From IMG/VR virus record IMGVR_UViG_3300027963_000066, positions 11,996 to 75,995 of that record: a stretch of DNA of 64,000 nt; one strand, given 5' to 3'. This stretch comes from a virus. Below, piece after piece: positions 31,778 to 55,192 of the stretch. A program made the translations under genes and the position numbers. How positions within the stretch are numbered: position 1 is the stretch's first letter; every line of letters starts with the position of its first letter. The notes under the pieces were generated by a model. The model was not told where the DNA came from and ran no database searches. It worked only from the letters and a program-made list of their open reading frames with translations.

Positions 31778-31934
31778 AACAGGCTAGTTGTCTACTTTGA
31801 GTTTATATCGGTGTCAATATCGAAACACACCTATCTAGTTTGTCTTCAGCTATAACCTTCAAAGCCCATACAGGCTCCAGTTATAACCAACTCCCTAGCA
31901 TTCCTTTAATATTAAAGGTTGCTGAACCTAGCCT
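31778..31934 (-). ncRNA. CAGCAA-helix RNA copy 1
   Basis: AGGCTAG-GTTCAGCAA...CTAGCCT-GTT. Confidence 0.75.
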
Positions 31935-31945
31935 TATAACACTAT

Positions 31946-33337
31946 TTATAGAACGCTGTAGCGATCTACATCAACAGTGGCTAGCATGATACCGTATGGA
32001 GTCATGTCAGTACCACTTAGGATACCCTTCATAACTGCTGGACTAAACCCGCTAACCAACGCGGTACCGCGCTTGTCGAACTTAACAGGGACATTGTCCC
32101 GGCTGTTCAGGTTCCAGAATACAATGTTTGGAACTTCGTATCCTGCATCCTTGTACTTACGCTTGATCATTTGGTGAGCAGAGTCATCAAAACTTACGCA
32201 TTGATCAAACTGCATATCCGAAAGGATCAGCAAAGTCTTTGGCATGTCACTTGCGTTCACACCGCCCTTGACTGCGATGCGTAGGATTTCGTCAAACGCC
32301 GCATGTAGGTTAGTGTTCATGCCCCAGTCGCTAGAGTTCATTTGTGCCATCTTTTCAGATAGCGAACCCTTAACGACCTGTGCCTTTGGCTTAGCACTGA
32401 AAGTCAAGAATGTATCCTTGAATACACCTGTGTTCTTATCAGCACAGTACAGACCCAACGACAGGGCAATATCGATGCACATTAGGTTAGCGTTTCCGCC
32501 AACTGGGCATGACATCGAACCGCTAACGTCAACCAAAGGCATAACGCTGGCATCGCCAATGTAGTTTGGCAACGATGCCCATTGAGCATCTGCTACCACA
32601 CTGTCGCCACCATGACGCAAGGTCTTGATGACATCGTATGGGTAAACCGCACTAGCGTTTACCTTGTCAGTACCTGCAGTCAAACGAGCCTTGTAGGCAG
32701 TGTAAGACGCAGAAGCATTCTTGGCAAATGCCTTGTTGTAACGAGCACTGGCTAGACTTGGCAACTTACCGAATTCGATAGAATCCCAGTCCTTTGCACA
32801 CATCTTGCTTTCGACAACATTGGTCAACGCAACCAAACTCTTACGGTAGAACTTTGGAGTCATACCATAGAAGTTACGGATTTCAACCGCGATTGGGCCT
32901 TGACGAGGCATCCATTTGGCACACAGACCGTTGCGTTCACGCAGTGCATCACCGATTAGGGTATAGGCCATGTGTTTGAACTTTTCAGTCTTGAATACCA
33001 GCAAGTCGTCCCAACGGCCGAACTCGCTTACGAAAGGAAGAACTGCTTCCAGAGTTTCTGGATGCAACTTTTCCAGATGTACAAGTACATCACGGAACAG
33101 CTGACGTTCACCTGCGCCACCACGGACATCACGTGACCAGAACGCAATCTTCATTGCAAGGTCACTGTCTTCCTGGAAAGCCTTTTCGAAGTCTGCGGTC
33201 ACAGACTTACCACGGCTTGCACCAATCTTGTAGAACAAATCTACAAGGGCATTGCCCGAATGGGCCTTTGCCTTCATACCGTTTTCGGTACGAGCTACCT
33301 CTGGGGTAGACTTAACTGCTTCAGCGAAAGTGATCAT
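31946..33337 (-). CDS. DUF2828-like TROVE/vWA (Ro60-related) protein
   Basis: TENG, RDVRGGAGER, FGRWDDL, AKWMPR, MIDAS DVSGSM, ILSDMQFD, IVFWNL, LVSGFS. Confidence 0.85.
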   Translation of the reverse strand: MITFAEAVKSTPEVARTENGMKAKAHSGNALVDLFYKIGASRGKSVTADFEKAFQEDSDLAMKIAFWSRDVRGGAGERQLFRDVLVHLEKLHPETLEAVLPFVSEFGRWDDLLVFKTEKFKHMAYTLIGDALRERNGLCAKWMPRQGPIAVEIRNFYGMTPKFYRKSLVALTNVVESKMCAKDWDSIEFGKLPSLASARYNKAFAKNASASYTAYKARLTAGTDKVNASAVYPYDVIKTLRHGGDSVVADAQWASLPNYIGDASVMPLVDVSGSMSCPVGGNANLMCIDIALSLGLYCADKNTGVFKDTFLTFSAKPKAQVVKGSLSEKMAQMNSSDWGMNTNLHAAFDEILRIAVKGGVNASDMPKTLLILSDMQFDQCVSFDDSAHQMIKRKYKDAGYEVPNIVFWNLNSRDNVPVKFDKRGTALVSGFSPAVMKGILSGTDMTPYGIMLATVDVDRYSVL

Positions 33338-33360
33338 TTCGTTCTCCTTTCTTTAAAATG

Positions 33361-33413
33361 ACAGGATGCTTTTTTTACTATAAGAAAAGTATAAAAATTG
33401 CTGTAAGCATCCT
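33361..33413 (-). ncRNA. CAGCAA-helix RNA copy 2 (5' leader of the TROVE/vWA gene)
   Basis: AGGATGCTT-ACAGCAA...AAGCATCCT-GT. Confidence 0.75.
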
Positions 33414-33488: not shown

Positions 33489-34094
33489 TTACATTGTAGG
33501 ACCGTTCCCGGACTTAAAACCTACACTACCACCCTCTGCTTCAATGCGAGCAATAACATCTTCAAACAAGATAGGAGCAAAGTCTGGAAGTTGTTCTACG
33601 CAAACGCAGTGGTATCTAACATCAATCTCATCGCTGTACAAGACTTCTCCAGTACGGGCATCGACACCTCTCGCCTTCATAACTCTGTTGGCGTGTAAGT
33701 GTCCGTGTATATTACAACCAAACCTGCCAAGGCTTGCTTCGTGAACAGGAATATGACTTAAAATAAGTCCATTCATGACATGATACGCTCGTAATTCACG
33801 GAAGTACTGCCTGTACTCGTCATCACGGAAAATGTCGTGGTTACCACGGATCAAAACCTTGTCACCGTTTAATCGGGCCAATGTCTTTAATGCCTTTCGA
33901 TTAATAACCACATCGCCCAAATGATATATTTTATCTGTAGGCTTAACACGGTCGTTCCAAGCCTTGACCATTGCTTCGTCCATCTCATCTGCGTCATCCC
34001 ATGGCCTTAACTTTGTAACACCATCGTTACGTGTGAAGCGGCATACACCTGTGTGACCAAAGTGTGTGTCGCTGACTAAAAATACACTAGGCAT
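33489..34094 (-). CDS. Calcineurin-like metallophosphoesterase
   Basis: SDTHFGH, HLGDV, RGNHD, SHIP, IHGHLH. Confidence 0.92.
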   Translation of the reverse strand: MPSVFLVSDTHFGHTGVCRFTRNDGVTKLRPWDDADEMDEAMVKAWNDRVKPTDKIYHLGDVVINRKALKTLARLNGDKVLIRGNHDIFRDDEYRQYFRELRAYHVMNGLILSHIPVHEASLGRFGCNIHGHLHANRVMKARGVDARTGEVLYSDEIDVRYHCVCVEQLPDFAPILFEDVIARIEAEGGSVGFKSGNGPTM

Positions 34095-34104
34095 ATTCGC
34101 CCCC

Positions 34105-35130
34105 TTAAATAATGTTAACTAACGATTTTACCCACCACAAGTTTTTATCCAATGTGACCTTTGTCTTAGCTTCTATAATTATAGCATCTTTAACAATTTC
34201 TGGATAATAATTTTTATCAAAAATAATTTCTTTGGCTCTTGCTTGATTACGTATTATTTTGTCTTTAACTTTGTCATTTAGCATCTTAAGCTCACCGATG
34301 GGTGTTTGGCATAGATTCTTAAAATTTTCAATGATCATACCAAACCTTTTTTCCATATCTGGCTCTTGATCAAAACTGTAGTCAAATATTTCGTCGTATA
34401 ATTCAAACCCTAGATCTTGAATATGTCTAAAGAATCCGTGTCCAGACGCAGTTAAAAATGGTTTACCCACTAATAATGCCGTGGCAGTTTTTTCTGTTAT
34501 AAAAATATCTTTGTGAACACTTTCACTGATCAGTTGCGCAAATGATTCATGATACTGAGCGGGAATTAAGTGCTGATCAGTGTGACCAGCAAATCCATCA
34601 AGATCTAAAATTTGAGGAACAAAATATTTAAAATCATATGCAGGGTTTGGTTGTGACCACGAAACGTTGGCAAACTGTAGTAGATCATGTTTAGCAACCT
34701 GATCGATCAGATAACATCTATGCCAATGAGGTTTATGATTAAGATAAACAAAATGTTTTTTAAATTCTAAATCCGTTTTTATTTCTAATCTAGTTTTCTT
34801 TCGAATGACCAATTCGAAATATGTTTTCTTCAACCAACAAGTTGGCCAGAAATGTATTTCTACATTAGGGTGCGGCGGAGGAGCATCAACACTTGCTATT
34901 CCTGAAGTGATAACAAATAGTTTTTTGTTACTTTCAGTAAGAGCCGTTACAAGCCTATCCCAGTATTTAAAATCTTCATTGACCAATGACCAATATTGAT
35001 ATTCGTTGTGAGCAAATAAAATTACAGCATCCTTATCAGTAGTTCGGATACGATCCGGAATGGTAAGTTTAAAATCATCGGAATCCCATATATCAAAACA
35101 CAGGTATTTTAATTCTTGTGATAAAATCAT
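34105..35130 (-). CDS. Hypothetical protein (possible glycosyltransferase-like)
   Basis: LISES...FITEKT...GKPF...DYSFD. Confidence 0.6.
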   Translation of the reverse strand: MILSQELKYLCFDIWDSDDFKLTIPDRIRTTDKDAVILFAHNEYQYWSLVNEDFKYWDRLVTALTESNKKLFVITSGIASVDAPPPHPNVEIHFWPTCWLKKTYFELVIRKKTRLEIKTDLEFKKHFVYLNHKPHWHRCYLIDQVAKHDLLQFANVSWSQPNPAYDFKYFVPQILDLDGFAGHTDQHLIPAQYHESFAQLISESVHKDIFITEKTATALLVGKPFLTASGHGFFRHIQDLGFELYDEIFDYSFDQEPDMEKRFGMIIENFKNLCQTPIGELKMLNDKVKDKIIRNQARAKEIIFDKNYYPEIVKDAIIIEAKTKVTLDKNLWWVKSLVNII

Positions 35131-35150
35131 AATGATGCTATATCCTATTT

Positions 35151-35615
35151 TTATACTGCATACCAAATTTCCTTAAACCCTTCTTCTTCTGAAGGCATTT
35201 CAAAACTTGCCAGCATTCCTTCTATTACAGCATCCGGAATGTCTTTCCCAGGACGGCCGTCCAATCGACGCTTTAATTCAAGCCTTGACGGTGTTTCAAA
35301 TACCACAGCAATATGATCGTAGCCGGGCAACATGTTAAATTTACGCAGACGACTTGTTACGGTAGTACTAGTTTGATCCCAAATAATGTCTCGACCCGCT
35401 TCTCGAGCTTTAACAACATCGCCTGCCATTAGATTAACACATTCTGGCATGACCTCAGTAAAAACTTCACTGTAGGTTTTGCCCATATCTTTGGCAAATT
35501 TTTCAACATAGACATCGGTGCTGATATAGGCACAGTCGCCTGCCCAATCTTGATTAGCTACCCAGGTACTTTTACCAGAACCAGGCACTCCGACCAATTG
35601 ATAACATTTAGGCAT
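35151..35615 (-). CDS. Polynucleotide kinase-like P-loop kinase (AAA_33)
   Basis: GVPGSGKST, ISTD, IIWDQT, P..EEGF. Confidence 0.85.
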   Translation of the reverse strand: MPKCYQLVGVPGSGKSTWVANQDWAGDCAYISTDVYVEKFAKDMGKTYSEVFTEVMPECVNLMAGDVVKAREAGRDIIWDQTSTTVTSRLRKFNMLPGYDHIAVVFETPSRLELKRRLDGRPGKDIPDAVIEGMLASFEMPSEEEGFKEIWYAV

Positions 35616-35782
35616 TAATGTACCGCTTCCTTAACATTGACTTCGCACTCGATTACCCAATTGTTAAATTCGGTAAACTTGTTTACTTCTACTCCAAGTC
35701 CGACTGCTTCGTTTACAAAATGCTGTAAGAGTACATTGTACAATGCATCGGGCATTGTGTCTTTATCAAATTTAATTTTCAT
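35615..35782 (-). CDS. Small hypothetical protein (55 aa)
   Basis: Hand translation MKIKFDKDTMPDALYN...; coupled to both neighbours. Confidence 0.6.
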   Translation of the reverse strand: MKIKFDKDTMPDALYNVLLQHFVNEAVGLGVEVNKFTEFNNWVIECEVNVKEAVH

Positions 35783-36072
35783 TCTTCAACTCCAAAATGT
35801 TTTAAGATATTCTGCTCACAATGAACAGGTATGTACGTTACTGAATCTTGAACCCAATGTCGTTCTGGAGTATGCGGTAGAGTTTTAGCAACCAAAGCAC
35901 ATTCTCTCACAATCAACTCGGCGAACTTTTCGTTAAACTGTGTATGCCAACCCACGTGGCCATCTTCCCAAATCTTGCCAGGAGTCTTGCTTCTAACAGG
36001 TCCAGTATATGTTTCATTCACATAGTCACCAGCCTGTAGAGCAAGTTGTTTAATTCGTTCGTTCATTACCAA
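35779..36072 (-). CDS. Hypothetical protein
   Basis: MNERIKQLA...EKFAELIVRECA...HFGVEE. Confidence 0.7.
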   Translation of the reverse strand: MVMNERIKQLALQAGDYVNETYTGPVRSKTPGKIWEDGHVGWHTQFNEKFAELIVRECALVAKTLPHTPERHWVQDSVTYIPVHCEQNILKHFGVEE

Positions 36073-36257
36073 TTCTCCACACCAGAAATTTCAGTTTTAA
36101 ACTCGCCATCTAGTCCGTTAATGTTAGTATGTACAACTAAACTAGTAACACTACCAATTCCGCTAGAATTATCTTGCAGTAATTCGAAGCTAGTGGCATC
36201 TGGAAATTTGTCCATAGTCTCTAAAATTTTAACAACTTCTTCTCTACATAAAAACAT
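36066..36257 (-). CDS. Hypothetical protein
   Basis: ORF track. Confidence 0.65.
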   Translation of the reverse strand: MFLCREEVVKILETMDKFPDATSFELLQDNSSGIGSVTSLVVHTNINGLDGEFKTEISGVENW

Positions 36258-36820
36258 TATACATCTCCTTCTAATTTCCTACGCTCCCTGCGTTCCGCGG
36301 CCAACGTAAAAACCTTTTCGTTGTCATTAGTCCAATCAATTGCTTTTGCAGGCACAATCAAACCAGAGTCGAGCGTCACACCGTTGATGGTGTGAGGCTC
36401 GTTCTCATCATAGGTCCAACCCAAATGCCGCATCATACGATGCTTGACGCACAGATTAGGACTACGGAATACTTCGGTATCATCGAATCCCATCATGACG
36501 CCGACTTCGCAAACTGCACCACTACGGCATACACCTGCTACACAATGAACGATAACGTTCATGTGATTGTCTAGTGCATGTTGTAACAACTGTGCCAACT
36601 TGGCCGCCTGCTCATGACTACACCGCATTTCTTCGTCTAAGCATTCGTCTTTTTCTTCAATGTCCAAAAATTGGAATTGATGTACTTCTTTGAATTTGTA
36701 CAGAGGTGTTGGAAAATCACCAGGAGGATCCACAATTTGGATCAGCATGGCATTCTCGCCCGGGTTGATGTGGAACCCTTTTTTGATGTCACTCAGTGCA
36801 ACGTTTTGAATCCATGGCAT
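36257..36820 (-). CDS. Cys-dependent (PTP/DSP-like) phosphatase
   Basis: VHCVAGVCRS (CX5R). Confidence 0.85.
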   Translation of the reverse strand: MPWIQNVALSDIKKGFHINPGENAMLIQIVDPPGDFPTPLYKFKEVHQFQFLDIEEKDECLDEEMRCSHEQAAKLAQLLQHALDNHMNVIVHCVAGVCRSGAVCEVGVMMGFDDTEVFRSPNLCVKHRMMRHLGWTYDENEPHTINGVTLDSGLIVPAKAIDWTNDNEKVFTLAAERRERRKLEGDV

Positions 36821-39343: not shown

Positions 39344-40309
39344 TTATTCAGGCTTGATTTTTCTAGCAAATGGTTGCCATTGTTCACGTAGTCTGTGCAT
39401 GGCCGCCCGAACACCTTCTGGAGTCTGTTCTTTAGGACTAATGAATATAAATTGTTCATCATATCGTTCTTTTGTTTCTTTTGAATTAAGTACAGGAATA
39501 AAATTCTTATGATACCAATCCTGTACGTCTTCTGGGGTATTCTTTGGTAGTATTAAATTCCAGCAAGCATAAACATTTAGTCCAGGAACGTAATCTTTCA
39601 TTAGTTTGGCGTTTTCTAACCCTGGCATAGGTTGTTCCCCTGCAAGTGCAATTAATTTGATCTTTCCTGATTTGACCATCTGGGCTCCCACTGCAATAGG
39701 AAATACTCCAAATTCAACCTGTCCCGCCAATACATCAGTCATGGCCTGCGCAGGCCCTTTATACATCACAGTTTCAACAGTATCTTTGCTAGGTTTAATT
39801 TTTGTAACCATGTATTCGACTGCTAATTTATGTCCAGATCCTCCAACAGCAAAATTAATAGGACGATTACCTGCTTTAATTTCGGCAATTAATTTTTCTG
39901 GAGTATCAATATCTGATCCTAACTTGGCATAAAATCCTAATGGGCTTTTACCCATATTTGTAACAGGCGTAAAATCCATAGCATTAAATTTTACATAAGT
40001 TGGATACCAAATTTCTGCGGTAACGTATGTGCTTTGACATGCGGGGATACCAATGTGATACCCGTCATTTTTTAGGGTATTAAGATGATTCATTGCAATG
40101 GTATCGCCTGCACCTGGTTTATAATCAAATACAAATTTGACTTTTGCTTTTTCTTCCACCTGTTTAGCTAAAATTCTAAATGCAATTTCGTTGCCTGCAC
40201 CCGGTGCGTTAGGAACAACAACGGTAATAGGTGCTGTCGGCTCCCAGGCATGTGCAAATATTGTGCTAGCAGATAATAAAATTGCTGTTAAAAATTTTTT
40301 CATGTTCAT
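39344..40309 (-). CDS. Bug/TctC tripartite tricarboxylate transporter substrate-binding protein
   Basis: Signal peptide, ITVVVP.APG, KPGAG, DGY, YKG..QAMTDVLAGQV. Confidence 0.9.
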   Translation of the reverse strand: MNMKKFLTAILLSASTIFAHAWEPTAPITVVVPNAPGAGNEIAFRILAKQVEEKAKVKFVFDYKPGAGDTIAMNHLNTLKNDGYHIGIPACQSTYVTAEIWYPTYVKFNAMDFTPVTNMGKSPLGFYAKLGSDIDTPEKLIAEIKAGNRPINFAVGGSGHKLAVEYMVTKIKPSKDTVETVMYKGPAQAMTDVLAGQVEFGVFPIAVGAQMVKSGKIKLIALAGEQPMPGLENAKLMKDYVPGLNVYACWNLILPKNTPEDVQDWYHKNFIPVLNSKETKERYDEQFIFISPKEQTPEGVRAAMHRLREQWQPFARKIKPE

Positions 40310-45526: not shown

Positions 45527-45647
45527 AACAGGTTCTCATTTTTTGTGCTACCACTACACCAACACCGCTGACCAAGCAGTGCCCAGGATTCGAACCTGGC
45601 CCGTCTTTTTTACAGAAAGATTTTAATAAGATTGCTGAAAAGAACCT
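45527..45647 (-). ncRNA. CAGCAA-helix RNA copy 3 enclosing a circularly permuted tRNA(GUA)
   Basis: AGGTTCT-TTTCAGCAA...AGAACCT-GTT around anticodon arm, T-arm, capped acceptor stem, D-arm. Confidence 0.85.
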
Positions 45648-45661
45648 AGATGGTCAAATAA

Positions 45662-45771
45662 AACAGGATGAGCTGTCATGGCCGGGAATCGAACCCTATT
45701 TCAGACAATGTCCCCAAATGGACGGCCTCGCGAAATGTGGAGCGAGTAAAATGGTTTGCTGTAATCATCCT
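45662..45771 (-). ncRNA. CAGCAA-helix RNA copy 4 with mini tRNA-like domain
   Basis: AGGATGA-TTACAGCAA...TCATCCT-GTT; internal GGG-TTCGATT-CCC T-loop. Confidence 0.75.
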
Positions 45772-48317: not shown

Positions 48318-48382
48318 AACAGGTTAATACTAGTTTAACGTCCTAGCAGACAGCCATTTTTTTTAATCGCTGTAATTAACCT
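48318..48382 (-). ncRNA. CAGCAA-helix RNA copy 5
   Basis: AGGTTAAT-TACAGCGA...ATTAACCT-GTT. Confidence 0.72.
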
Positions 48383-50936: not shown

Positions 50937-51635
50937 ATGGATAGACTTAATTACAATTCAATATACAAAGGATTTTCAAAAAAATCTGTAGACTGGGTTT
51001 CCGGGGACACCCAAGAAAAATACAAAGAAAATTTATTATCACACAGATCCGAACTTGAAAAGCACGGGTGGATTGATAATAAATTCAATTACTCTTTTAA
51101 TTCTGAAGGATTTAGATGTGACGAATTTTCATCAGATCCCACAGTTATGTTTTTAGGTTGTAGTTTTACTGTAGGCATCGGCATGCCTATAGAACAAACT
51201 TGGTCTTCACTGGTTGCCAAATCTCTTGATTTAAAATCAGCAAATCTTGGGCAGGGCGGCGGATCTAATGACACTGCTTTTAGATTAGGGGTTCATTGGA
51301 TCCCAAAAATTAAACCTAAGCTAGTTGTATTGTTAGTAACACCGTACCATAGGTTTGAAATAGTGTCGTCTGGAATGATACACTTGATCACGCCTCAACA
51401 CCATGCTGAACAATTTACTAATTTTATGGCCGAATGGGGATCTGATGATACTAATCCATATCATAATCGCCTTAAAAATGTATTAGCAATAAAACAGGTA
51501 TGTGCAGAAAATCAAATCAAATTTGTCAAACATGACTGTAACCTTTTTCAAAGATTGGACCTAGCCAGAGACCTGGCTCACCCTGGTGTAATGTCTAATC
51601 AAAAGTTAGCAGAAGATATATTAAAATTAATATAG
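50937..51635 (+). CDS. SGNH-hydrolase-like protein
   Basis: NSEGFRC, FLGCSFT, ANLG.GGGSND, RDLAHPG; TAAATA before ATG 50937. Confidence 0.7.
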   Translation: MDRLNYNSIYKGFSKKSVDWVSGDTQEKYKENLLSHRSELEKHGWIDNKFNYSFNSEGFRCDEFSSDPTVMFLGCSFTVGIGMPIEQTWSSLVAKSLDLKSANLGQGGGSNDTAFRLGVHWIPKIKPKLVVLLVTPYHRFEIVSSGMIHLITPQHHAEQFTNFMAEWGSDDTNPYHNRLKNVLAIKQVCAENQIKFVKHDCNLFQRLDLARDLAHPGVMSNQKLAEDILKLI

Positions 51636-51666
51636 TGGCAGGCGCATTAGGGATCGAACCTACTCC
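51636..51666 (-). pseudogene. tRNA 3' fragment (T-arm, 3' acceptor strand, CCA)
   Basis: GTAGG-TTCGATC-CCTAA-TGCGCCT-G-CCA with no 5' half. Confidence 0.7.
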
Positions 51667-51676
51667 AAATAAATAT

Positions 51677-51750
51677 TGGCAGAGGGTAATGGAATCGAAC
51701 CATTAATAGCGGAATCAAAATCCGCTGTTATACCATTTAACTAACCCCCA
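51677..51750 (-). tRNA. tRNA-Gln(UUG)
   Basis: Loop TTTTGAT, GCCA. Confidence 0.9.
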
Positions 51751-51757
51751 ACAATAA

Positions 51758-51815
51758 AACAGGTTGCTTATTTTTCAATTAAAAGTTGAATTGGTAAATT
51801 TGCTGAACGCAACCT
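51758..51815 (-). ncRNA. CAGCAA-helix RNA copy 6 with Lys(UUU)-like anticodon arm
   Basis: AGGTTGC-GTTCAGCAA...TTCAA-CTTTTAA-TTGAA...GCAACCT-GTT. Confidence 0.75.
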
Positions 51816-51820
51816 AAAAA

Positions 51821-51912
51821 TGGAGGAAGGATGGTAGAATCGAACTCCAACCGGCTCATCACCGATCCATCTGTTTTCAAGACAGTGCCGGGCCCAGCCC
51901 AGATAACCTTCC
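51821..51912 (-). tRNA. tRNA-Ser(UGA)
   Basis: Loop CTTGAAA, long variable arm. Confidence 0.85.
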
Positions 51913-51917
51913 ATGTT

Positions 51918-51993
51918 TGGTAGTGATGGTCAGACTCGAACTGACGATAATCTCCGTATGAAGGAGGCACATTAGCCGCTATGCTACATCACT
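51918..51993 (-). tRNA. tRNA-Met(CAU)
   Basis: Loop TTCATAC, CCA. Confidence 0.85.
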
Positions 51994-51999
51994 ATAATT

Positions 52000-52073
52000 T
52001 GGTGCTCTAGTCAAGAATCGAACTTGAATTTCTACTTTACCAAAGTAGTGTTCTACCATTTAACTACAAGAGC
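52000..52073 (-). tRNA. tRNA-Thr(GGU)
   Basis: Loop TTGGTAA, CCA. Confidence 0.9.
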
Positions 52074-52079
52074 AAGATA

Positions 52080-52155
52080 TGGCGTACCGCGAGAGCCTCG
52101 AACTCCCAACCCCTGGTTTTGGAGACCAGTGCTCTGCCAATTGAGCTAGCGATAC
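52080..52155 (-). tRNA. tRNA-Trp(CCA)
   Basis: Loop CTCCAAA, GCCA. Confidence 0.9.
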
Positions 52156-52161
52156 ATAACT

Positions 52162-52235
52162 TGGTAGTTCCTGAAAGAATTGAACTTTCATCTACGCCAT
52201 GTCACGGCATTGTTCTGCCATTAAACTAAGGAACT
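52162..52235 (-). tRNA. tRNA-Val(GAC)
   Basis: Loop GTGACAT, CCA. Confidence 0.85.
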
Positions 52236-52386
52236 GAATAGATTGGGCGCCCAACTATCCTCCTGGGAAGACTCGCTGGATTGTCTCGAATAGCCAAGTC
52301 TAAGACCACTCCTAACCGTTCTTGCGCTGTCACATAGCTGAGCCACTATGCTAGGTTGGGTGGGACTCTAAACTATCGTCTATCCC
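52236..52386 (-). ncRNA. Unidentified ~150-nt structured RNA
   Basis: Closed by GGATAGA/TCTATTC; internal hairpins; lies between tRNAs. Confidence 0.5.
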
Positions 52387-52391
52387 TAAAC

Positions 52392-52467
52392 TGGCACCCC
52401 CGGAAGGAATCGAACCTCCATTCCTGCGTTCGTAGCACAGTGTATGCATCCATTATACGACAGGGGT
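52392..52467 (-). tRNA. tRNA-Arg(ACG)
   Basis: Loop CTACGAA, GCCA. Confidence 0.9.
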
Positions 52468-52474
52468 AAAATAA

Positions 52475-52538
52475 AACAGGTTCCGCTTTTGAGATCAAAT
52501 TTCGAGTTTGAGTTTTTAAAGTTTGCTGTAAGGAACCT
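52475..52538 (-). ncRNA. CAGCAA-helix RNA copy 7 with Ser(CGA)-like anticodon arm
   Basis: AGGTTCC-TTACAGCAA...TCAAA-CTCGAAA-TTTGA...GGAACCT-GTT. Confidence 0.75.
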
Positions 52539-52543
52539 AAAAC

Positions 52544-52618
52544 TGGCACCGCCGACGGGAATCGAACCCGCCTAATTCTGATCGACAGTCAGGTGAACTC
52601 CCAGAGTCCTACGACGGT
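52544..52618 (-). tRNA. tRNA-Asp(GUC)
   Basis: Loop CTGTCGA, GCCA. Confidence 0.85.
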
Positions 52619-52624
52619 ATAAAT

Positions 52625-52702
52625 TGGAAGTGCGAGTCGGATTCGAACCGACGGTTTTGCGGATTTGCAATCCACTGCATTGGGCCTCTCTGCCATCGCA
52701 CT
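52625..52702 (-). tRNA. tRNA-Cys(GCA)
   Basis: Loop TTGCAAA, U73 discriminator. Confidence 0.9.
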
Positions 52703-52714
52703 ATAATTTTATTT

Positions 52715-52789
52715 TGGTGGACCAACGGGGGATCGAACCCCGACCTCCGCGGTGCAAACGCGGCGTGCTCCCATTATCACTATCAGCCC
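52715..52789 (-). tRNA. tRNA-Ala(UGC)
   Basis: Loop TTTGCAC, G3-U70. Confidence 0.92.
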
Positions 52790-52795
52790 AAAATT

Positions 52796-52869
52796 TGGTA
52801 TCGCGTACGGGGATCGAACCCGCCTACGTAAGTTGAAAGCCTACTGACCTCCCAGAAGTCCAACGCGAT
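52796..52869 (-). tRNA. tRNA-Glu(UUC)
   Basis: Loop CTTTCAA, CCA. Confidence 0.83.
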
Positions 52870-52886
52870 ATAAAAAACTTCTTAGG

Positions 52887-52957
52887 GGTGACTATCGGGG
52901 CTCGAACCCGAACTACCAGAGTCACAGTCTAGGTTGCTACCATTACAACATAGCCAC
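52887..52957 (-). tRNA. tRNA-His(GUG), no encoded CCA
   Basis: Loop CTGTGAC, C73; flanked by a 10-bp inverted repeat. Confidence 0.85.
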
Positions 52958-52973
52958 ACCTAAGAAGTCTAAA

Positions 52974-53052
52974 TGGCTCCGCATCTGGGTAACGATCCCA
53001 GCTAATCATTGATTAACAGTCAAGTCCGTGCACCATGCTCGGATTCTGCGGA
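52974..53052 (-). tRNA. tRNA-Asn(GUU)
   Basis: Loop CTGTTAA, GCCA; atypical T-loop. Confidence 0.8.
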
Positions 53053-53063
53053 ATAGAATTGAA

Positions 53064-53261
53064 TTTGTAAGTAGTTGCACCTCTGTAATCGCAACCATTC
53101 ACCCGATTCATGCAAGTCCGGACGGGAGGAGGTAAGTCACTTGGAATACTTGACATAGGTGCTCCACTGCGTTTACGGGACTTGAACCCGTCCTACTTTT
53201 GCACTAGGTTGACCTTCGAAGAATCTTCCTAGCGAGTCTTTCTCTTGCTGACACTTACAAA
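53064..53261 (-). ncRNA. Large variant CAGCAA-helix RNA (copy 8) with internal T-arm
   Basis: TTTGTAAGT-GTCAGCAA...ACTTACAAA; internal ACGGG-TTCAAGT-CCCGT. Confidence 0.6.
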
Positions 53262-53264
53262 ACT

Positions 53265-53339
53265 TGGTAGCCACGGACAATTTCGAAATGTCGACCTATC
53301 GCTTATCAAGCGAGTGCTCTTCCTCTGAGCTACGCGGCT
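53265..53339 (-). tRNA. tRNA-Ile(GAU)
   Basis: Loop TTGATAA, CCA. Confidence 0.9.
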
Positions 53340-53343
53340 AAAT

Positions 53344-53419
53344 TGGTACACCCTGTTGGAATCGAACCAACTTCCACGGCTCTTCAGGCCGCCGCTATGA
53401 CCACATCAGCTAAAGGTGC
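53344..53419 (-). tRNA. tRNA-Phe(GAA)
   Basis: Loop CTGAAGA, CCA. Confidence 0.9.
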
Positions 53420-53426
53420 ATTAAAT

Positions 53427-53504
53427 TGGTCTCCATGGTACGATTCGAACGTACAGCCTCCTGACTCCAGATCAGGCCGTCTACCAGATTGACATTACAC
53501 AGAG
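53427..53504 (-). tRNA. tRNA-Pro(UGG), atypical C33
   Basis: Loop TCTGGAG, CCA. Confidence 0.8.
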
Positions 53505-53511
53505 ATAAAAT

Positions 53512-53600
53512 TGGTGTAGCGTGATGGAATCGAACCACTTGGCAACCACCCTGCTTGACGAGGCCTACCGGGTTACAGCCGGCAACAGGGAACACACTAC
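53512..53600 (-). tRNA. D-armless tRNA-Tyr(GUA)-like RNA
   Basis: Acceptor, anticodon arm GCCGG-CTGTAAC-CCGGT, T-arm and CCA present; D region only 10 nt. Confidence 0.75.
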
Positions 53601-53605
53601 ATATT

Positions 53606-53691
53606 TGGTGGAGGCGGATGGATTCGAACCACCGCGCTTTTTAGGGGCCAGATTTACAGTCTGGTGCAATCAACCACTCTGCCACGCCTCC
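53606..53691 (-). tRNA. tRNA-Tyr(GUA)
   Basis: Loop CTGTAAA, long variable arm, ACCA. Confidence 0.93.
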
Positions 53692-54219: not shown

Positions 54220-54248
54220 ATTGTACAGTTATTTAGTTCTGCTGTCAA
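54220..54248 (-). promoter_or_regulatory. sigma70 promoter of the tRNA array
   Basis: TTGACA-17 nt-TACAAT. Confidence 0.82.
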
Positions 54249-54319
54249 CCACTATTTTAAGTTTTGAACAAAAAAGTTTGGTCTACTGTGTGAACTTCTA
54301 ACTAGTCTCTAGTATAAGT

Positions 54320-55192
54320 TTATTTAGTCTCTGTGTCAACCTTGTTGTTGTAAATGTGCCACATATCTAGGAACTCCACAACATTTTTTTCAAATCCTCT
54401 TGCGATCAACCAGTCAACTAATTTCTTCTCACTAAGTTGCGGGCTTATGCTACGCTGGTGAATGCCCAGCATTCTGGTCTGATCATGGAGGGCTATCCTT
54501 GCAAGATCCATCCTATCCACTACCTGTTCGGGCGTAAAGAAGTTTTCACACATCCTACGATCGTCTTTACAGGTATCTTTGTTGAAGTATTGGTACAGGA
54601 TAAACTCACTGGGCAACACTCCCTCATAGGTAAACAATGGGATAAGATCGTAATCACTCATGCTCCTGGCATGGGCAGTGTTTATCTTAAAAGGAGGATG
54701 CGGCCTTAGAAAAAATTCAGGTCTGGGCAGTTGGGTGTTGAATTCTATCAGTCGGCAAAAGTCTTCAATCATCTCATTGAAAGGTATGTCCAGTACCTGC
54801 TTCCATGGAATTTCTGGAAGGGCAGGGAATCCGTTGCCTTCTTGTACAGCCCATTGATCCAAATCCGTAGGTTTGATAAAAAAGTTTTTGCTGTCTAGTA
54901 TTAGATACGAATCAGTATCGACTGACCAGGATACATATATTTTGGCCAACTGTTGTTGGTACCATCCGCCCATGTCATCGTTTAATCGACAGATTTCTTC
55001 TATCGAATAGAGTTTAAGTCTATGCTTTTTATAATGCGGTTTGAGATACGACCACCATTCATGCCGTGTCATTACTCTATCTTGGATAATCACAATATGC
55101 GTACATGGCTTGTCTAAAAATAATTCAAGGCTATCTGCCTGAAGTCGCATCATTTCTTTTTCTGCATGGTATGTCACTGTGACCAGAGTCAT
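54320..55192 (-). CDS. GT-A-like (DUF6492-type) protein
   Basis: GWYQQQLAK...YLILDSKNFFIKP. Confidence 0.65.
   Translation of the reverse strand: MTLVTVTYHAEKEMMRLQADSLELFLDKPCTHIVIIQDRVMTRHEWWSYLKPHYKKHRLKLYSIEEICRLNDDMGGWYQQQLAKIYVSWSVDTDSYLILDSKNFFIKPTDLDQWAVQEGNGFPALPEIPWKQVLDIPFNEMIEDFCRLIEFNTQLPRPEFFLRPHPPFKINTAHARSMSDYDLIPLFTYEGVLPSEFILYQYFNKDTCKDDRRMCENFFTPEQVVDRMDLARIALHDQTRMLGIHQRSISPQLSEKKLVDWLIARGFEKNVVEFLDMWHIYNNKVDTETK

What the first reader, a model, noticed from the sequence alone, without database searches (positions are those of the whole stretch)
51758..52538. Minimal CAGCAA RNAs displaying bare anticodon stem-loops
Copy 6 encloses TTCAA-CTTTTAA-TTGAA and copy 7 encloses TCAAA-CTCGAAA-TTTGA. 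Each is an exact 5-bp stem with a 7-nt CU-NNN-AA loop, the geometry of tRNA-Lys(UUU) and tRNA-Ser(CGA) anticodon arms. Copy 3 shows the same pattern with GUA. Established: tRNA-Lys(UUU) is the PrrC target. Inference: protein-protected anticodon decoys that titrate host anticodon nucleases. Copies 2 and 5 lack such loops, and AT-rich stems can arise by chance.
Basis: partly seen in the sequence, partly recalled or inferred. Interest (0 to 1): 0.78.

Follow-up and report, generated by a model that had tools for sequence, protein, structure and literature searches.

The report
Anticodon-arm mimics on Ro60-partner RNAs
Two ~60-base RNA genes inside a lake phage's tRNA cluster show a hairpin shaped like a tRNA anticodon arm on a conserved "handle" that travels with a Ro60-like phage protein, so they are probably that protein's partner RNAs; their proposed role as bait for tRNA-cutting defence enzymes is untested.

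Summary
On the minus strand, copy 6 (51815-51758) and copy 7 (52538-52475) each have a 7-bp terminal helix (AGGNNNN/NNNNCCU), an unpaired UNCAGCAA box and an exact 5-bp stem with a 7-nt C-U-NNN-A-A loop.

This exceeds chance. Such a hairpin arises in 0.8% and 0.3% of shuffles of the two interiors. Among relatives, 29 of 61 distinct minimal elements carry one (about 7 of 18 clusters against 1 expected). Both helices covary.

The elements belong to a large RNA family linked, on the same strand, to a DUF2828/DUF7788 gene (31946-33337). That protein's model matches Ro60/TROVE-vWA structures. Mid-size paralogues add T, acceptor and D arms after the hairpin and hit Rfam YrlA below threshold. I read the family as a Y-RNA-like branch with a different handle, absent from Rfam and from the papers I could search.

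The decoy idea is untested and weakened. Twenty-two different triplets occur, they change between close relatives, and the loops match same-anticodon tRNAs no better than the generic frame predicts. The handle also resembles Dictyostelium Class I RNAs (RF01414, 26-33 bits, below threshold).

This scan has found the same system many times on other DNA.

The parts
51758..51815 (-). Copy 6: 55-nt CAGCAA-handle RNA plus GUU tail. Helix 51815-51809 / 51767-51761; box GUUCAGCAA 51808-51800; anticodon-arm-like hairpin 51790-51774 (loop CUUUUAA 51785-51779).
   Evidence: Sequence; model R1 71.0 bits; RF01414 30.7 bits, below threshold.
52475..52538 (-). Copy 7: 61-nt CAGCAA-handle RNA plus GUU tail. 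Helix 52538-52532 / 52484-52478; box UUACAGCAA 52531-52523; hairpin 52511-52495 (loop CUCGAAA 52506-52500).
   Evidence: Sequence; model R1 56.1 bits; RF01414 26.2 bits.
31946..33337 (-). Gene for the Ro60-like protein (Pfam DUF2828 + DUF7788; TROVE-like HEAT ring plus vWA domain), the presumed partner of the RNA family.
   Evidence: Pfam; PHROG 850 'RNA-binding protein'; AF2 model pLDDT 78.8; top 13 Foldseek PDB hits are all Ro60/TROVE, E 1.5e-8 to 3e-4.
31778..31934 (-). Copy 1: 154-nt family member directly downstream of the Ro-like gene.
33360..33413 (-). Copy 2: minimal member in the 5' leader of the Ro-like gene.
   Evidence: R1 50.2 bits; RF01414 31.5 bits.
45527..45647 (-). Copy 3: mid-size member. 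Handle, then anticodon arm (CUGUAAA), T arm, closed acceptor hairpin and D arm (a permuted tRNA-like body).
   Evidence: R1 40.0 bits.
45662..45771 (-). Copy 4: mid-size member with T-arm-like piece.
   Evidence: R1 29.0 bits.
48318..48382 (-). Copy 5: minimal member (CAGCGA variant) with a 6-bp stem and 9-nt loop, placed right after tRNA-Thr(UGU).
   Evidence: R1 30.9 bits; fold z -3.46.
51677..53691 (-). tRNA block that embeds copies 6 and 7. Copy 6 lies between a tRNA-Ser(UGA)-like gene and tRNA-Gln; copy 7 lies between tRNA-Asp and tRNA-Arg(ACG). Spacers are CCA-GUUUU-AGG and CCU-GUUUUAUU.
   Evidence: ARAGORN and Rfam.
54220..54339 (-). Two strong sigma-70-like promoters (54339-54311 and 54248-54220, 11 of 12 matches each) upstream of the block. 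No comparable promoter or terminator lies next to copies 6 and 7, so co-transcription with the tRNAs is likely.
   Evidence: consensus scan only.
33489..36820 (-). Neighbouring genes upstream of the Ro-like gene: metallophosphoesterase (33489-34094), unknown 353-aa protein (34105-35166), AAA_33 P-loop kinase (35151-35615), DSP/PTP-like phosphatase (36257-36820). These are candidate RNA end-healing enzymes.
   Evidence: Pfam; homologues found in 35, 25 and 27 of 73 related loci respectively.

Best explanation
Copies 6 and 7 are genes for small (about 55-61 nt) partner RNAs of the phage's Ro60-like protein, that is, Y-RNA analogues of a branch with its own handle. Shown: each has a 7-bp helix joining its ends, an unpaired UNCAGCAA box next to the 5' strand, a GU(U) tail and a variable interior. 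Shown: the helix and the interior hairpin covary, and the family sits on the same strand as, and mostly within 500 nt of, DUF2828/DUF7788 genes in phages of many bacterial phyla. Shown: that protein is predicted to fold as a Ro60-type TROVE ring plus vWA domain. Inferred: the RNAs are transcribed with the tRNA operon from promoters near 54.3 kb and are cut out in the U-rich spacers (GU/UUU resembles an RNase E site). Inferred: the helix plus CAGCAA box docks on the Ro-like protein as the Y-RNA stem docks on Ro60. Inferred: the interior hairpin, which has the generic frame of a tRNA anticodon arm (5 bp, C32-U33-NNN-A37-A38), is displayed. Most likely role (inference, about 40%): the displayed tRNA part brings a tRNA-anticodon-binding factor (nuclease, modification or repair enzyme) to the Ro-like particle, or holds it there, within a tRNA damage, repair or counter-defence module. 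The triplet itself seems to matter little. The minimal members look like reduced versions of the mid-size, YrlA-like members that carry nearly whole, uncharged tRNA bodies.
For: The sequence anatomy is. The family is real: 151 distinct AGG-N7-CAGCAA sites, 125 closed by a complementary N4+CCUG against 1.2 with permuted N4, and 96 pattern hits in 28 related records against 5 control hits, nearly all on one strand per record. Covariation: terminal helix 99.4% paired, hairpin 85.9% paired, covariation score 0.507 against 0.114 in shuffles (0 of 500), slid controls 33-43% paired. Protein linkage: about 130 elements sit beside the gene in 73 IMG/VR loci. In 80 loci from genome assemblies with proteins only 33-58% identical, 52 of 53 model hits lie on the gene's strand, most just upstream. 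Cultured phages also carry them: E. coli Felixounavirus mio, Listeria List-36, mycobacteriophage LeBron. The Ro60 fold is supported. Y-RNA likeness: Rfam YrlA aligns full length to mid-size members at 31.8-43.8 bits. The hairpin is followed by a T arm in mid-size paralogues. Context: kinase and phosphatase neighbours, RtcB-type ligase near the gene in Listeria phage, Rnl2-type ligase in a relative. A Ro60-like gp130 upstream of the tRNA genes of phage Bas63 counters the Ppl defence (PMC11482910); that gp130 is the same gene family is my inference. 31 of 61 minimal members follow a tRNA CCA end by 3-7 nt.
Against: There are no binding or expression data. RNA-library contigs cover a copy-6-like element in three lake metatranscriptomes, but contigs cannot show a discrete RNA and DNA carry-over is possible. 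Copies 6 and 7 lie 18-19 kb from the protein gene. Their folds are not more stable than shuffles (z -1.15 and -0.60; copy 7's hairpin is absent from the centroid). The handle (CAGCAA) differs from the GNCGAAN0-1G / GGUCCGA Ro60-binding motif (PMC4201824), and Pfam TROVE and sequence searches of the PDB do not detect the protein. All Rfam hits are below gathering scores. Some members lack the 7-nt loop hairpin (copy 5, L031-type, E. coli phage mio). A quarter of the loops have A32, which real tRNAs of these phages almost never have. The model-fitted alignment leans towards the modelled structure.
Confidence: 0.72

Rival explanations
1. One reading: the hairpins are specific decoys of tRNA-Lys(UUU) and tRNA-Ser(CGA) that titrate host anticodon nucleases such as PrrC, RloC or PARIS.
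For: The loops have anticodon-loop geometry, and copy 6's loop equals the phage's own tRNA-Lys(UUU) loop. UUU, UGU and CAU are the commonest triplets. The elements lie in a tRNA array beside candidate RNA-healing enzymes. A Ro60-like phage protein is a counter-defence factor in Bas63. Isolated anticodon stem-loops are substrates of some anticodon nucleases (my own knowledge, not checked here).
Against: Twenty-two triplets occur and they switch between close relatives on an unchanged stem. There is no excess identity to same-anticodon tRNA loops (20 against 18.5 expected). Copy 7's loop differs from the clade's tRNA-Ser(CGA) loops. A32 is frequent. The stems are A/U only. Known nucleases of this kind depend on base modifications that a mimic may lack (my own knowledge). 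The defence countered in Bas63 (Ppl) is not known to cut tRNA.
Confidence: 0.15
2. Only the handle matters. The interior hairpin is a spacer or stabiliser, and its resemblance to an anticodon arm is inherited from a tRNA-derived ancestor without present function.
For: The triplet is free to vary. Some members lack the hairpin. The stems are weak. Mid-size members show descent from tRNA-like bodies.
Against: U33 (50 of 57) and A37 (52 of 57) are kept well above background (T 0.28, A 0.47). A 7-nt loop is strongly preferred, and stems change by compensatory pairs across clades, for example CUGUCAC on TTCAC/GTGAA, TTCAT/ATGAA and CAAAA/TTTTG in gut-type phages.
Confidence: 0.2
3. They are cis-acting elements of the tRNA operon or of the Ro-like mRNA (processing sites, attenuators or an autoregulatory leader), not free RNAs.
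For: One member always sits in the 5' leader of the protein gene, about 25 nt before the start. Members are flanked by U-rich spacers after tRNA CCA ends.
Against: Up to nine dispersed copies occur per genome fragment, with variable cargo that includes whole tRNA-like bodies. Tandem arrays of five occur upstream of the gene in gut-type phages. The architecture parallels the processed YrlA/YrlB pair (PMC4201824).
Confidence: 0.1
4. They are degenerate or armless tRNAs (functional minimal tRNAs or pseudogenes).
For: They have a 7-bp end-joining helix plus an anticodon-like arm and lie in a tRNA array.
Against: They have no CCA (tail GUU), although all but one of the phage's listed tRNAs encode CCA. 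D and T arms are absent, and ARAGORN and the tRNA model give no hit. The conserved CAGCAA box has no tRNA counterpart. In mid-size members the acceptor stem is closed by a loop.
Confidence: 0.03

Closest known systems
Ro60 (Rsr) with Y RNAs of the YrlA/YrlB type in bacteria and phages (Chen et al. 2014, PMC4201824; Rfam RF02553), and Thermus phage phiLo Ro60 with Yrl1/Yrl2 (PMC12135203; PDB 9KOP, 9L5Y)
   Same: A ring-shaped TROVE+vWA protein gene has several small RNAs on the same strand nearby. The RNA ends pair in a helix with a conserved motif on the 5' side, and the variable module mimics tRNA. A larger tRNA-like RNA comes with a smaller companion. The system is associated with RNA-repair genes and tRNAs.
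   Different: The protein is the DUF2828/DUF7788 branch, which Pfam TROVE and sequence searches of the PDB do not detect. The handle is UNCAGCAA rather than GNCGAAN0-1G or CGAA. There are up to nine or more copies per genome, many inside tRNA arrays. The minimal members display only an anticodon-arm-like hairpin, a part that YrlA lacks. Rfam YrlA scores stay below threshold.
Class I RNAs of dictyostelid social amoebae (Rfam RF01414; Kjellin et al. 2021, PMC7919456)
   Same: Both are 42-65 nt long with a short covarying helix joining the ends. Both have an 11-nt motif next to the 5' strand; copy 7 carries CCUUACAGCAA, identical to the Rfam consensus. Both have a variable A/U-rich interior, a start of A(A/G)G and an end of CUGU. 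RF01414 aligns full length at 26-33 bits to at least nine phage elements.
   Different: All scores are below the gathering score of 41.5. There is no DUSE promoter. These are phage genes inside bacterial-type tRNA operons. The known direct binder in Dictyostelium is the RRM protein Rnp1A. Gut-type phage members give no RF01414 hit, so part of the score comes from A/U-rich interiors. Homology is not established.
Phage-encoded tRNAs that replace or evade cleavage by host anticodon nucleases (van den Berg et al. 2023, eLife e85183, seen only as a reference in PMC11482910)
   Same: These are phage tRNA-array products thought to answer tRNA-targeting defences.
   Different: Those are chargeable tRNAs that restore decoding. 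The present RNAs cannot be charged and would act only by binding.

Membership tests
Ro60/Y-RNA particle (YrlA/YrlB type) | A Ro60-type protein (TROVE HEAT ring plus vWA) is encoded in the genome | tested here: met
   The AF2 model's top 13 PDB matches are all Ro60/TROVE over the full length. Pfam names it DUF2828+DUF7788, not TROVE.
Ro60/Y-RNA particle (YrlA/YrlB type) | RNA genes lie on the same strand within a few kb of the protein gene | tested here: met
   Met for the family. Copies 6 and 7 themselves lie 18.4 and 19.1 kb away on the same strand; copies 1 and 2 flank the gene.
Ro60/Y-RNA particle (YrlA/YrlB type) | Conserved Ro60-binding motif GNCGAAN0-1G / GGUCCGA in the terminal stem | tested here: not met
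   The motif is UNCAGCAA next to a 7-bp helix. The YrlA alignment places AUGC of both RNAs at the same spot, but the CGAA motif is absent.
Ro60/Y-RNA particle (YrlA/YrlB type) | tRNA-like domain with T and D arms (YrlA), and score above Rfam RF02553 gathering (69 bits) | tested here: not met
   Copies 6 and 7 have only the anticodon-arm-like hairpin. Mid-size paralogues have T, acceptor and D arms but score 31.8-43.8 bits.
Ro60/Y-RNA particle (YrlA/YrlB type) | Physical binding of the RNA to the protein | not testable with these tools
   Needs immunoprecipitation or gel-shift assays.
Dictyostelium Class I RNA (RF01414) | 42-65 nt with a short helix joining the 5' and 3' ends | tested here: met
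   55 and 61 nt with a 7-bp helix that covaries.
Dictyostelium Class I RNA (RF01414) | 11-nt motif next to the 5' strand (T3, C6, C9, A10, A11 near-invariant) | tested here: met
   Copy 7 has CCTTACAGCAA. Copy 6 has GCGTTCAGCAA, which keeps C6, C9, A10 and A11; T3 is kept only with the one-base gap of the Rfam alignment. Motif positions are from PMC7919456.
Dictyostelium Class I RNA (RF01414) | Rfam gathering score 41.5 bits | tested here: not met
   30.7 and 26.2 bits here; the best in relatives is 33.3 bits.
Dictyostelium Class I RNA (RF01414) | DUSE promoter about 60 nt upstream; dictyostelid genome | tested here: not met
   This is a phage record with bacterial-type tRNAs and promoters. 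No search for the DUSE motif itself was run; the positions 60 nt upstream fall inside tRNA genes.
tRNA (including armless tRNAs) | Acceptor stem with discriminator and CCA, plus recognition by tRNA models | tested here: not met
   The tail is GUU, and neither ARAGORN nor RF00005 hits them, even at E up to 5.
Anticodon-nuclease decoy (proposed function, no curated family) | Isoacceptor-specific copy of a target tRNA's anticodon loop | tested here: inconclusive
   20 of 31 loops equal a same-anticodon phage tRNA loop against 18.5 expected from the generic frame. Host tRNAs are unknown.
Anticodon-nuclease decoy (proposed function, no curated family) | Recognition or inhibition of an anticodon nuclease | not testable with these tools
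   Needs cleavage and competition assays.

The most novel reading that the evidence does not exclude
The CAGCAA handle is the universal docking signal of DUF2828-type Ro60 paralogues. These proteins also exist in plants and fungi. On this reading the unexplained Class I RNAs of dictyostelid amoebae are eukaryotic members of the same RNA family, that is, Y-like RNAs of a DUF2828 protein. That would give Class I RNAs a partner and a function, and would predict undiscovered handle RNAs in other eukaryotes.
Probability: 0.12. Interest if true: 0.9.

Novelty: new variant of a known kind. Interest (0 to 1): 0.68.

Why it matters
Ro60/Y-RNA particles are known from animals, bacteria and a few phages, but what their tRNA-like modules do is still open. 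Here a second, apparently undescribed handle class partners a Ro60-like protein that 711 cultured phage records encode, including Felix O1-type coliphages, Listeria P100-type phages and mycobacteriophages. Its smallest members reduce the cargo to an anticodon-arm look-alike. That gives a very small, mutable test object in tractable phage-host pairs for asking which tRNA-binding factor the particle engages. It also lets one ask whether these particles act in tRNA repair or in counter-defence, as the Bas63 gp130 phenotype suggests.

Tried and rejected
- Megablast of 6 kb against cultured phages gave only a 59-bp hit, so there is no close cultured relative.
- Sequence and profile searches of the protein against PDB sequences found nothing. 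Only the fold comparison found Ro60.
- Fold energies of copies 6 and 7 are not better than shuffles. I rejected thermodynamics as support.
- The test for isoacceptor-specific mimicry was negative.
- The 353-aa neighbour is not an RNA ligase: no Pfam hit even at E up to 10, and the Atlas gives weak glycosyltransferase-like leads only.
- RtcB and T4 Rnl1 families were not found in five genome fragments. All are fragments, and the Rnl1 control rang nowhere, so this says little.
- Crude clustering of the A-rich interiors at identity 0.55-0.65 collapsed them into 1-6 clusters and is uninformative.
- Metatranscriptome contigs laid on 51000-53400 mostly come from relatives' tRNAs. The bin holding copy 7 has depth of at most 6, and contigs cannot show RNA ends.
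- A plus-strand promoter (MotA-box-like) reading of GGTTGCTTA in copy 6 was rejected on spacing, by eye.
- I could not check whether Dictyostelium encodes a DUF2828 protein. The Avesson 2011 paper is not held and the near-length homologue list is saturated by phage proteins.
Full report
**Setting.** The window is part of a 76-kb IMG/VR virus record estimated to be about 21% complete, that is, a jumbo-phage fragment. It comes from freshwater and lake metagenomes. It holds at least 33 minus-strand tRNA genes, all but one with an encoded CCA. It also encodes collagen-like proteins, glycosyltransferases, QueC-like and radical-SAM genes. The finding lies inside the tRNA block 51677-53691.

**Observation.** Read on the minus strand, copy 6 (51815-51758) and copy 7 (52538-52475) share one anatomy:
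- a U-rich spacer and AGGNNNN;
- an unpaired (N)UNCAGCAA box and an A/U-rich linker;
- an exact 5-bp stem with a 7-nt loop (TTCAA-CTTTTAA-TTGAA and TCAAA-CTCGAAA-TTTGA);
- an A-rich linker, then NNNNCCT pairing with the start, then GTT.

The two helices differ by a compensatory G-C to C-G change. Copy 6 sits between a tRNA-Ser(UGA)-like gene and tRNA-Gln. Copy 7 sits between tRNA-Asp and tRNA-Arg(ACG).

**More than chance?** Yes, on comparative grounds.
- Dinucleotide shuffles of each interior give a 5-bp WC / 7-nt YU-NNN-RA hairpin in 0.8% (copy 6) and 0.3% (copy 7) of trials.
- I collected relatives through the linked protein (73 IMG/VR loci) and from larger stretches of their records. A simple pattern found 116 distinct elements with a bimodal size distribution: 61 of 37-68 nt and 55 of 91-249 nt.
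- Of the 61 minimal interiors, 29 hold a hairpin of at least 4 bp with a 7-nt loop, U at loop position 2 and a purine at position 6. At cluster level this is 6.8 of 18 against 1.0 +/- 0.96 in shuffles (an earlier set gave 10 of 22 against 1.3).
- Loop sizes peak at 7 and at 9. The 9-nt loops can be read as 7-nt loops plus a mismatched closing pair.
- A covariance model built on 30 minimal members found 121 matches in the phage loci. On that alignment the terminal helix is 99.4% paired and the hairpin 85.9% paired. All five hairpin pairs change on both sides. The covariation score is 0.507 against 0.114 in shuffles (0 of 500), and slid controls reach 33-43% paired. The alignment is fitted to the model, which favours it.
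- Among 57 distinct 7-nt loops, C32 occurs 34 times, U33 50, A37 52 and A38 42. Positions 34-36 give 22 different triplets. Background in the interiors is T 0.28 and A 0.47.
- Energetically the two RNAs are unremarkable (z -1.15 and -0.60).

**The family and its protein.**
- Motif-only sites (AGG-N7-CAGCAA) number 151. Of these, 125 are closed by a complementary N4+CCTG within 260 nt, against 1.2 with permuted N4.
- In 28 related records the motif occurs 96 times, almost always on one strand per record, against 5 control hits.
- The elements cluster around a DUF2828+DUF7788 gene (window 31946-33337). One minimal member ends about 25 nt before the start codon and a roughly 155-nt member follows the stop.
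- The protein's AlphaFold model (27-sequence alignment, pLDDT 78.8, pTM 0.72) finds only Ro60/TROVE structures as its 13 best PDB matches. These include Thermus phage phiLo Ro60, Xenopus and human Ro60 and Deinococcus Rsr (E 1.5e-8 to 3e-4, TM 0.5-0.6 for most, full length). Sequence searches miss them.
- The linkage is old and broad. In 80 loci from bacterial and archaeal assemblies whose proteins are 33-58% identical, 52 of 53 model hits are on the gene's strand, mostly just upstream.
- In gut-type Clostridia-associated loci, five handle RNAs stand in tandem before the gene.
- tblastn finds the protein in 711 cultured phage records. Handle RNAs lie in the tRNA array next to it in E. coli Felixounavirus mio. 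They lie upstream of it in Listeria phage List-36 and downstream of the 'Ro-like RNA binding protein' of mycobacteriophage LeBron.

**Is the hairpin an anticodon arm?**
- In mid-size members (91-137 nt) the hairpin at the same position after the handle is followed by a short variable stretch, a canonical T arm (5 bp, TTCGANT loop), an acceptor-like hairpin closed by a loop, and a D arm. Window copy 3 is one example.
- Rfam's YrlA model aligns full length to such members at 31.8 bits in L118 and 38-44 bits in gut-type loci, against a gathering score of 69.
- The minimal members therefore look like reduced forms that keep only the anticodon-arm equivalent.
- In gut-type phages the minimal member before the gene carries the tRNA-Asp-type loop CUGUCAC on three different stems (TTCAC/GTGAA, TTCAT/ATGAA, CAAAA/TTTTG).

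**Is it a specific decoy?** The evidence goes against specificity.
- The same TTCAA/TTGAA stem carries CUUUUAA, CUUGUAA, CUGUUAA or AUGAUAA in different phages.
- The copy 3 orthologue in a 93%-identical relative has GAA instead of GUA. The copy 7-like element of L015 has CUUCAAC.
- Against 662 distinct tRNAs of the same phage clade, 20 of 31 mimic loops equal a loop of a same-anticodon tRNA, but 18.5 are expected from the common CU..AA frame alone. A32 is frequent in mimics and nearly absent from tRNAs.
- What is conserved is therefore the generic anticodon-loop frame (U-turn U33, A37), not an isoacceptor identity.

**Context and function.**
- No promoter or terminator of note lies next to copies 6 and 7. 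Two 11-of-12 promoters lie at 54339-54220, so co-transcription with the tRNAs is likely.
- The spacers (CCA-GUUUU-AGG and CCU-GUUUUA) resemble RNase E sites. That is inference from my own knowledge of the RN/WUU consensus.
- Upstream of the Ro-like gene lie a metallophosphoesterase, an AAA_33 P-loop kinase and a DSP/PTP-like phosphatase. Homologues of these appear in 25-35 of the 73 related loci.
- The Listeria phage has an RtcB-type ligase 1.3 kb from the gene, and one relative has an Rnl2-type ligase.
- Published work places TROVE proteins of jumbo phages in RNA repair (PMC7824862). It also shows that a Ro60-like gp130 upstream of the tRNA genes of phage Bas63 counters the Ppl defence (PMC11482910). 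That gp130 belongs to this family is my inference.
- This supports a tRNA damage, repair or counter-defence setting. It does not separate bait, tether and scaffold roles.

**Known families.**
- The closest known kind is the Ro60/Y-RNA particle of the YrlA/YrlB type (PMC4201824, PMC12135203).
- The present RNAs differ in the handle: CAGCAA against GNCGAAN0-1G or CGAA, and the word CAGCAA does not occur in PMC4201824.
- They also differ in the protein branch, in copy number and placement, and in the anticodon-arm-only cargo.
- No Rfam family reaches its gathering score on them.
- Unexpectedly, Rfam RF01414 (Dictyostelium Class I RNA) aligns full length to copies 2, 6 and 7 (31.5, 30.7 and 26.2 bits) and to six more elements in relatives (27-33 bits). 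The gathering score is 41.5.
- Copy 7 contains the exact consensus CCUUACAGCAA. Length, end-joining helix, start and CUGU end also fit the published definition (PMC7919456).
- Gut-type members give no such hit, so interior composition contributes to the score. I treat this as a resemblance, not membership.
- DUF2828+DUF7788 proteins do occur in plants and fungi. I could not test Dictyostelium.

**Earlier notes.** This scan's notes show the same protein-RNA system on many other genomes, with the same closest-known family and the same Class I resemblance. One later check put a bold reading of an earlier report at 6 in 100, which made me lower the odds of the Class I homology. My verdicts rest on the tests above.

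**Verdict.** Novelty: a new variant of a known kind.

Noticed in passing
window 51825-51912 (-): A type-II tRNA-like gene with loop CUUGAAA (anticodon UGA, Ser) and an encoded CCA. ARAGORN misses it, and only the tRNA-Sec model hits it, at 45 bits against a gathering score of 47.
   Followed up: partly
window 52236-52391 (-): A 156-nt stretch without a tRNA lies between tRNA-Arg(ACG) and tRNA-Val(GAC). It starts GUUUAGGGAUAG after the CCA end, has no Rfam hit and no CAGCAA box. It may be another structured RNA.
   Followed up: no
window 52958-53264 (-): A 307-nt gap holds the 'looser' copy (GTAAGTG-TCAGCAAG ... ACTTAC) with a T-arm-like GGACGGGTTCAAGTCCCGT. Contigs of three lake RNA libraries cover 53131-53244 at word depth 194-241.
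   Followed up: partly
window 53431-53503 and 53515-53601 (-): Two atypical tRNA-like genes that ARAGORN misses: RF00005 at 31.5 bits and the tRNA-Sec model at 26.6 bits.
   Followed up: no
window 52885-52957 (-): tRNA-His is the only tRNA of the block without an encoded CCA (its 3' end reads ACCCC).
   Followed up: no
L119:4052-4480 (-): A relative (G013) carries a GOLLD RNA (RF02032, 196.6 bits, above gathering score) inside its tRNA / handle-RNA region.
   Followed up: no
L066:8057-8320 (+): A group I intron (RF00028, 57.2 bits) lies in the tRNA cluster of a distant relative.
   Followed up: no
alignment A4, loop column 36: Forty of 57 distinct mimic loops have U at position 36 (triplets UGU, UUU, CAU, GAU and others). 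Together with A37-A38 this is the frame of ANN-decoding tRNAs, which carry t6A37 by my own knowledge. The background frequency of T is 0.28.
   Followed up: partly
L213 (Listeria phage List-36) 2662-2809, 3001-4521, 5852-7063: Two handle RNAs lie just upstream of the DUF2828 gene. An annotated 'tRNA splicing ligase' (RtcB type) and a metal-dependent phosphohydrolase follow within 2.5 kb.
   Followed up: partly
L211 (Escherichia phage mio) 5716-5785, 5883-5939, 6299-6369: The unannotated gaps of the Felix O1-type tRNA array, right after the 'vWFA protein' gene, hold handle RNAs (R1 scores 19-22 bits). This is a tractable system for experiments.
   Followed up: partly
window 39344-40309 (-): A TctC-family periplasmic receptor gene sits in the phage. 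By my own knowledge this family is expanded in Burkholderiales, which may hint at the host.
   Followed up: no
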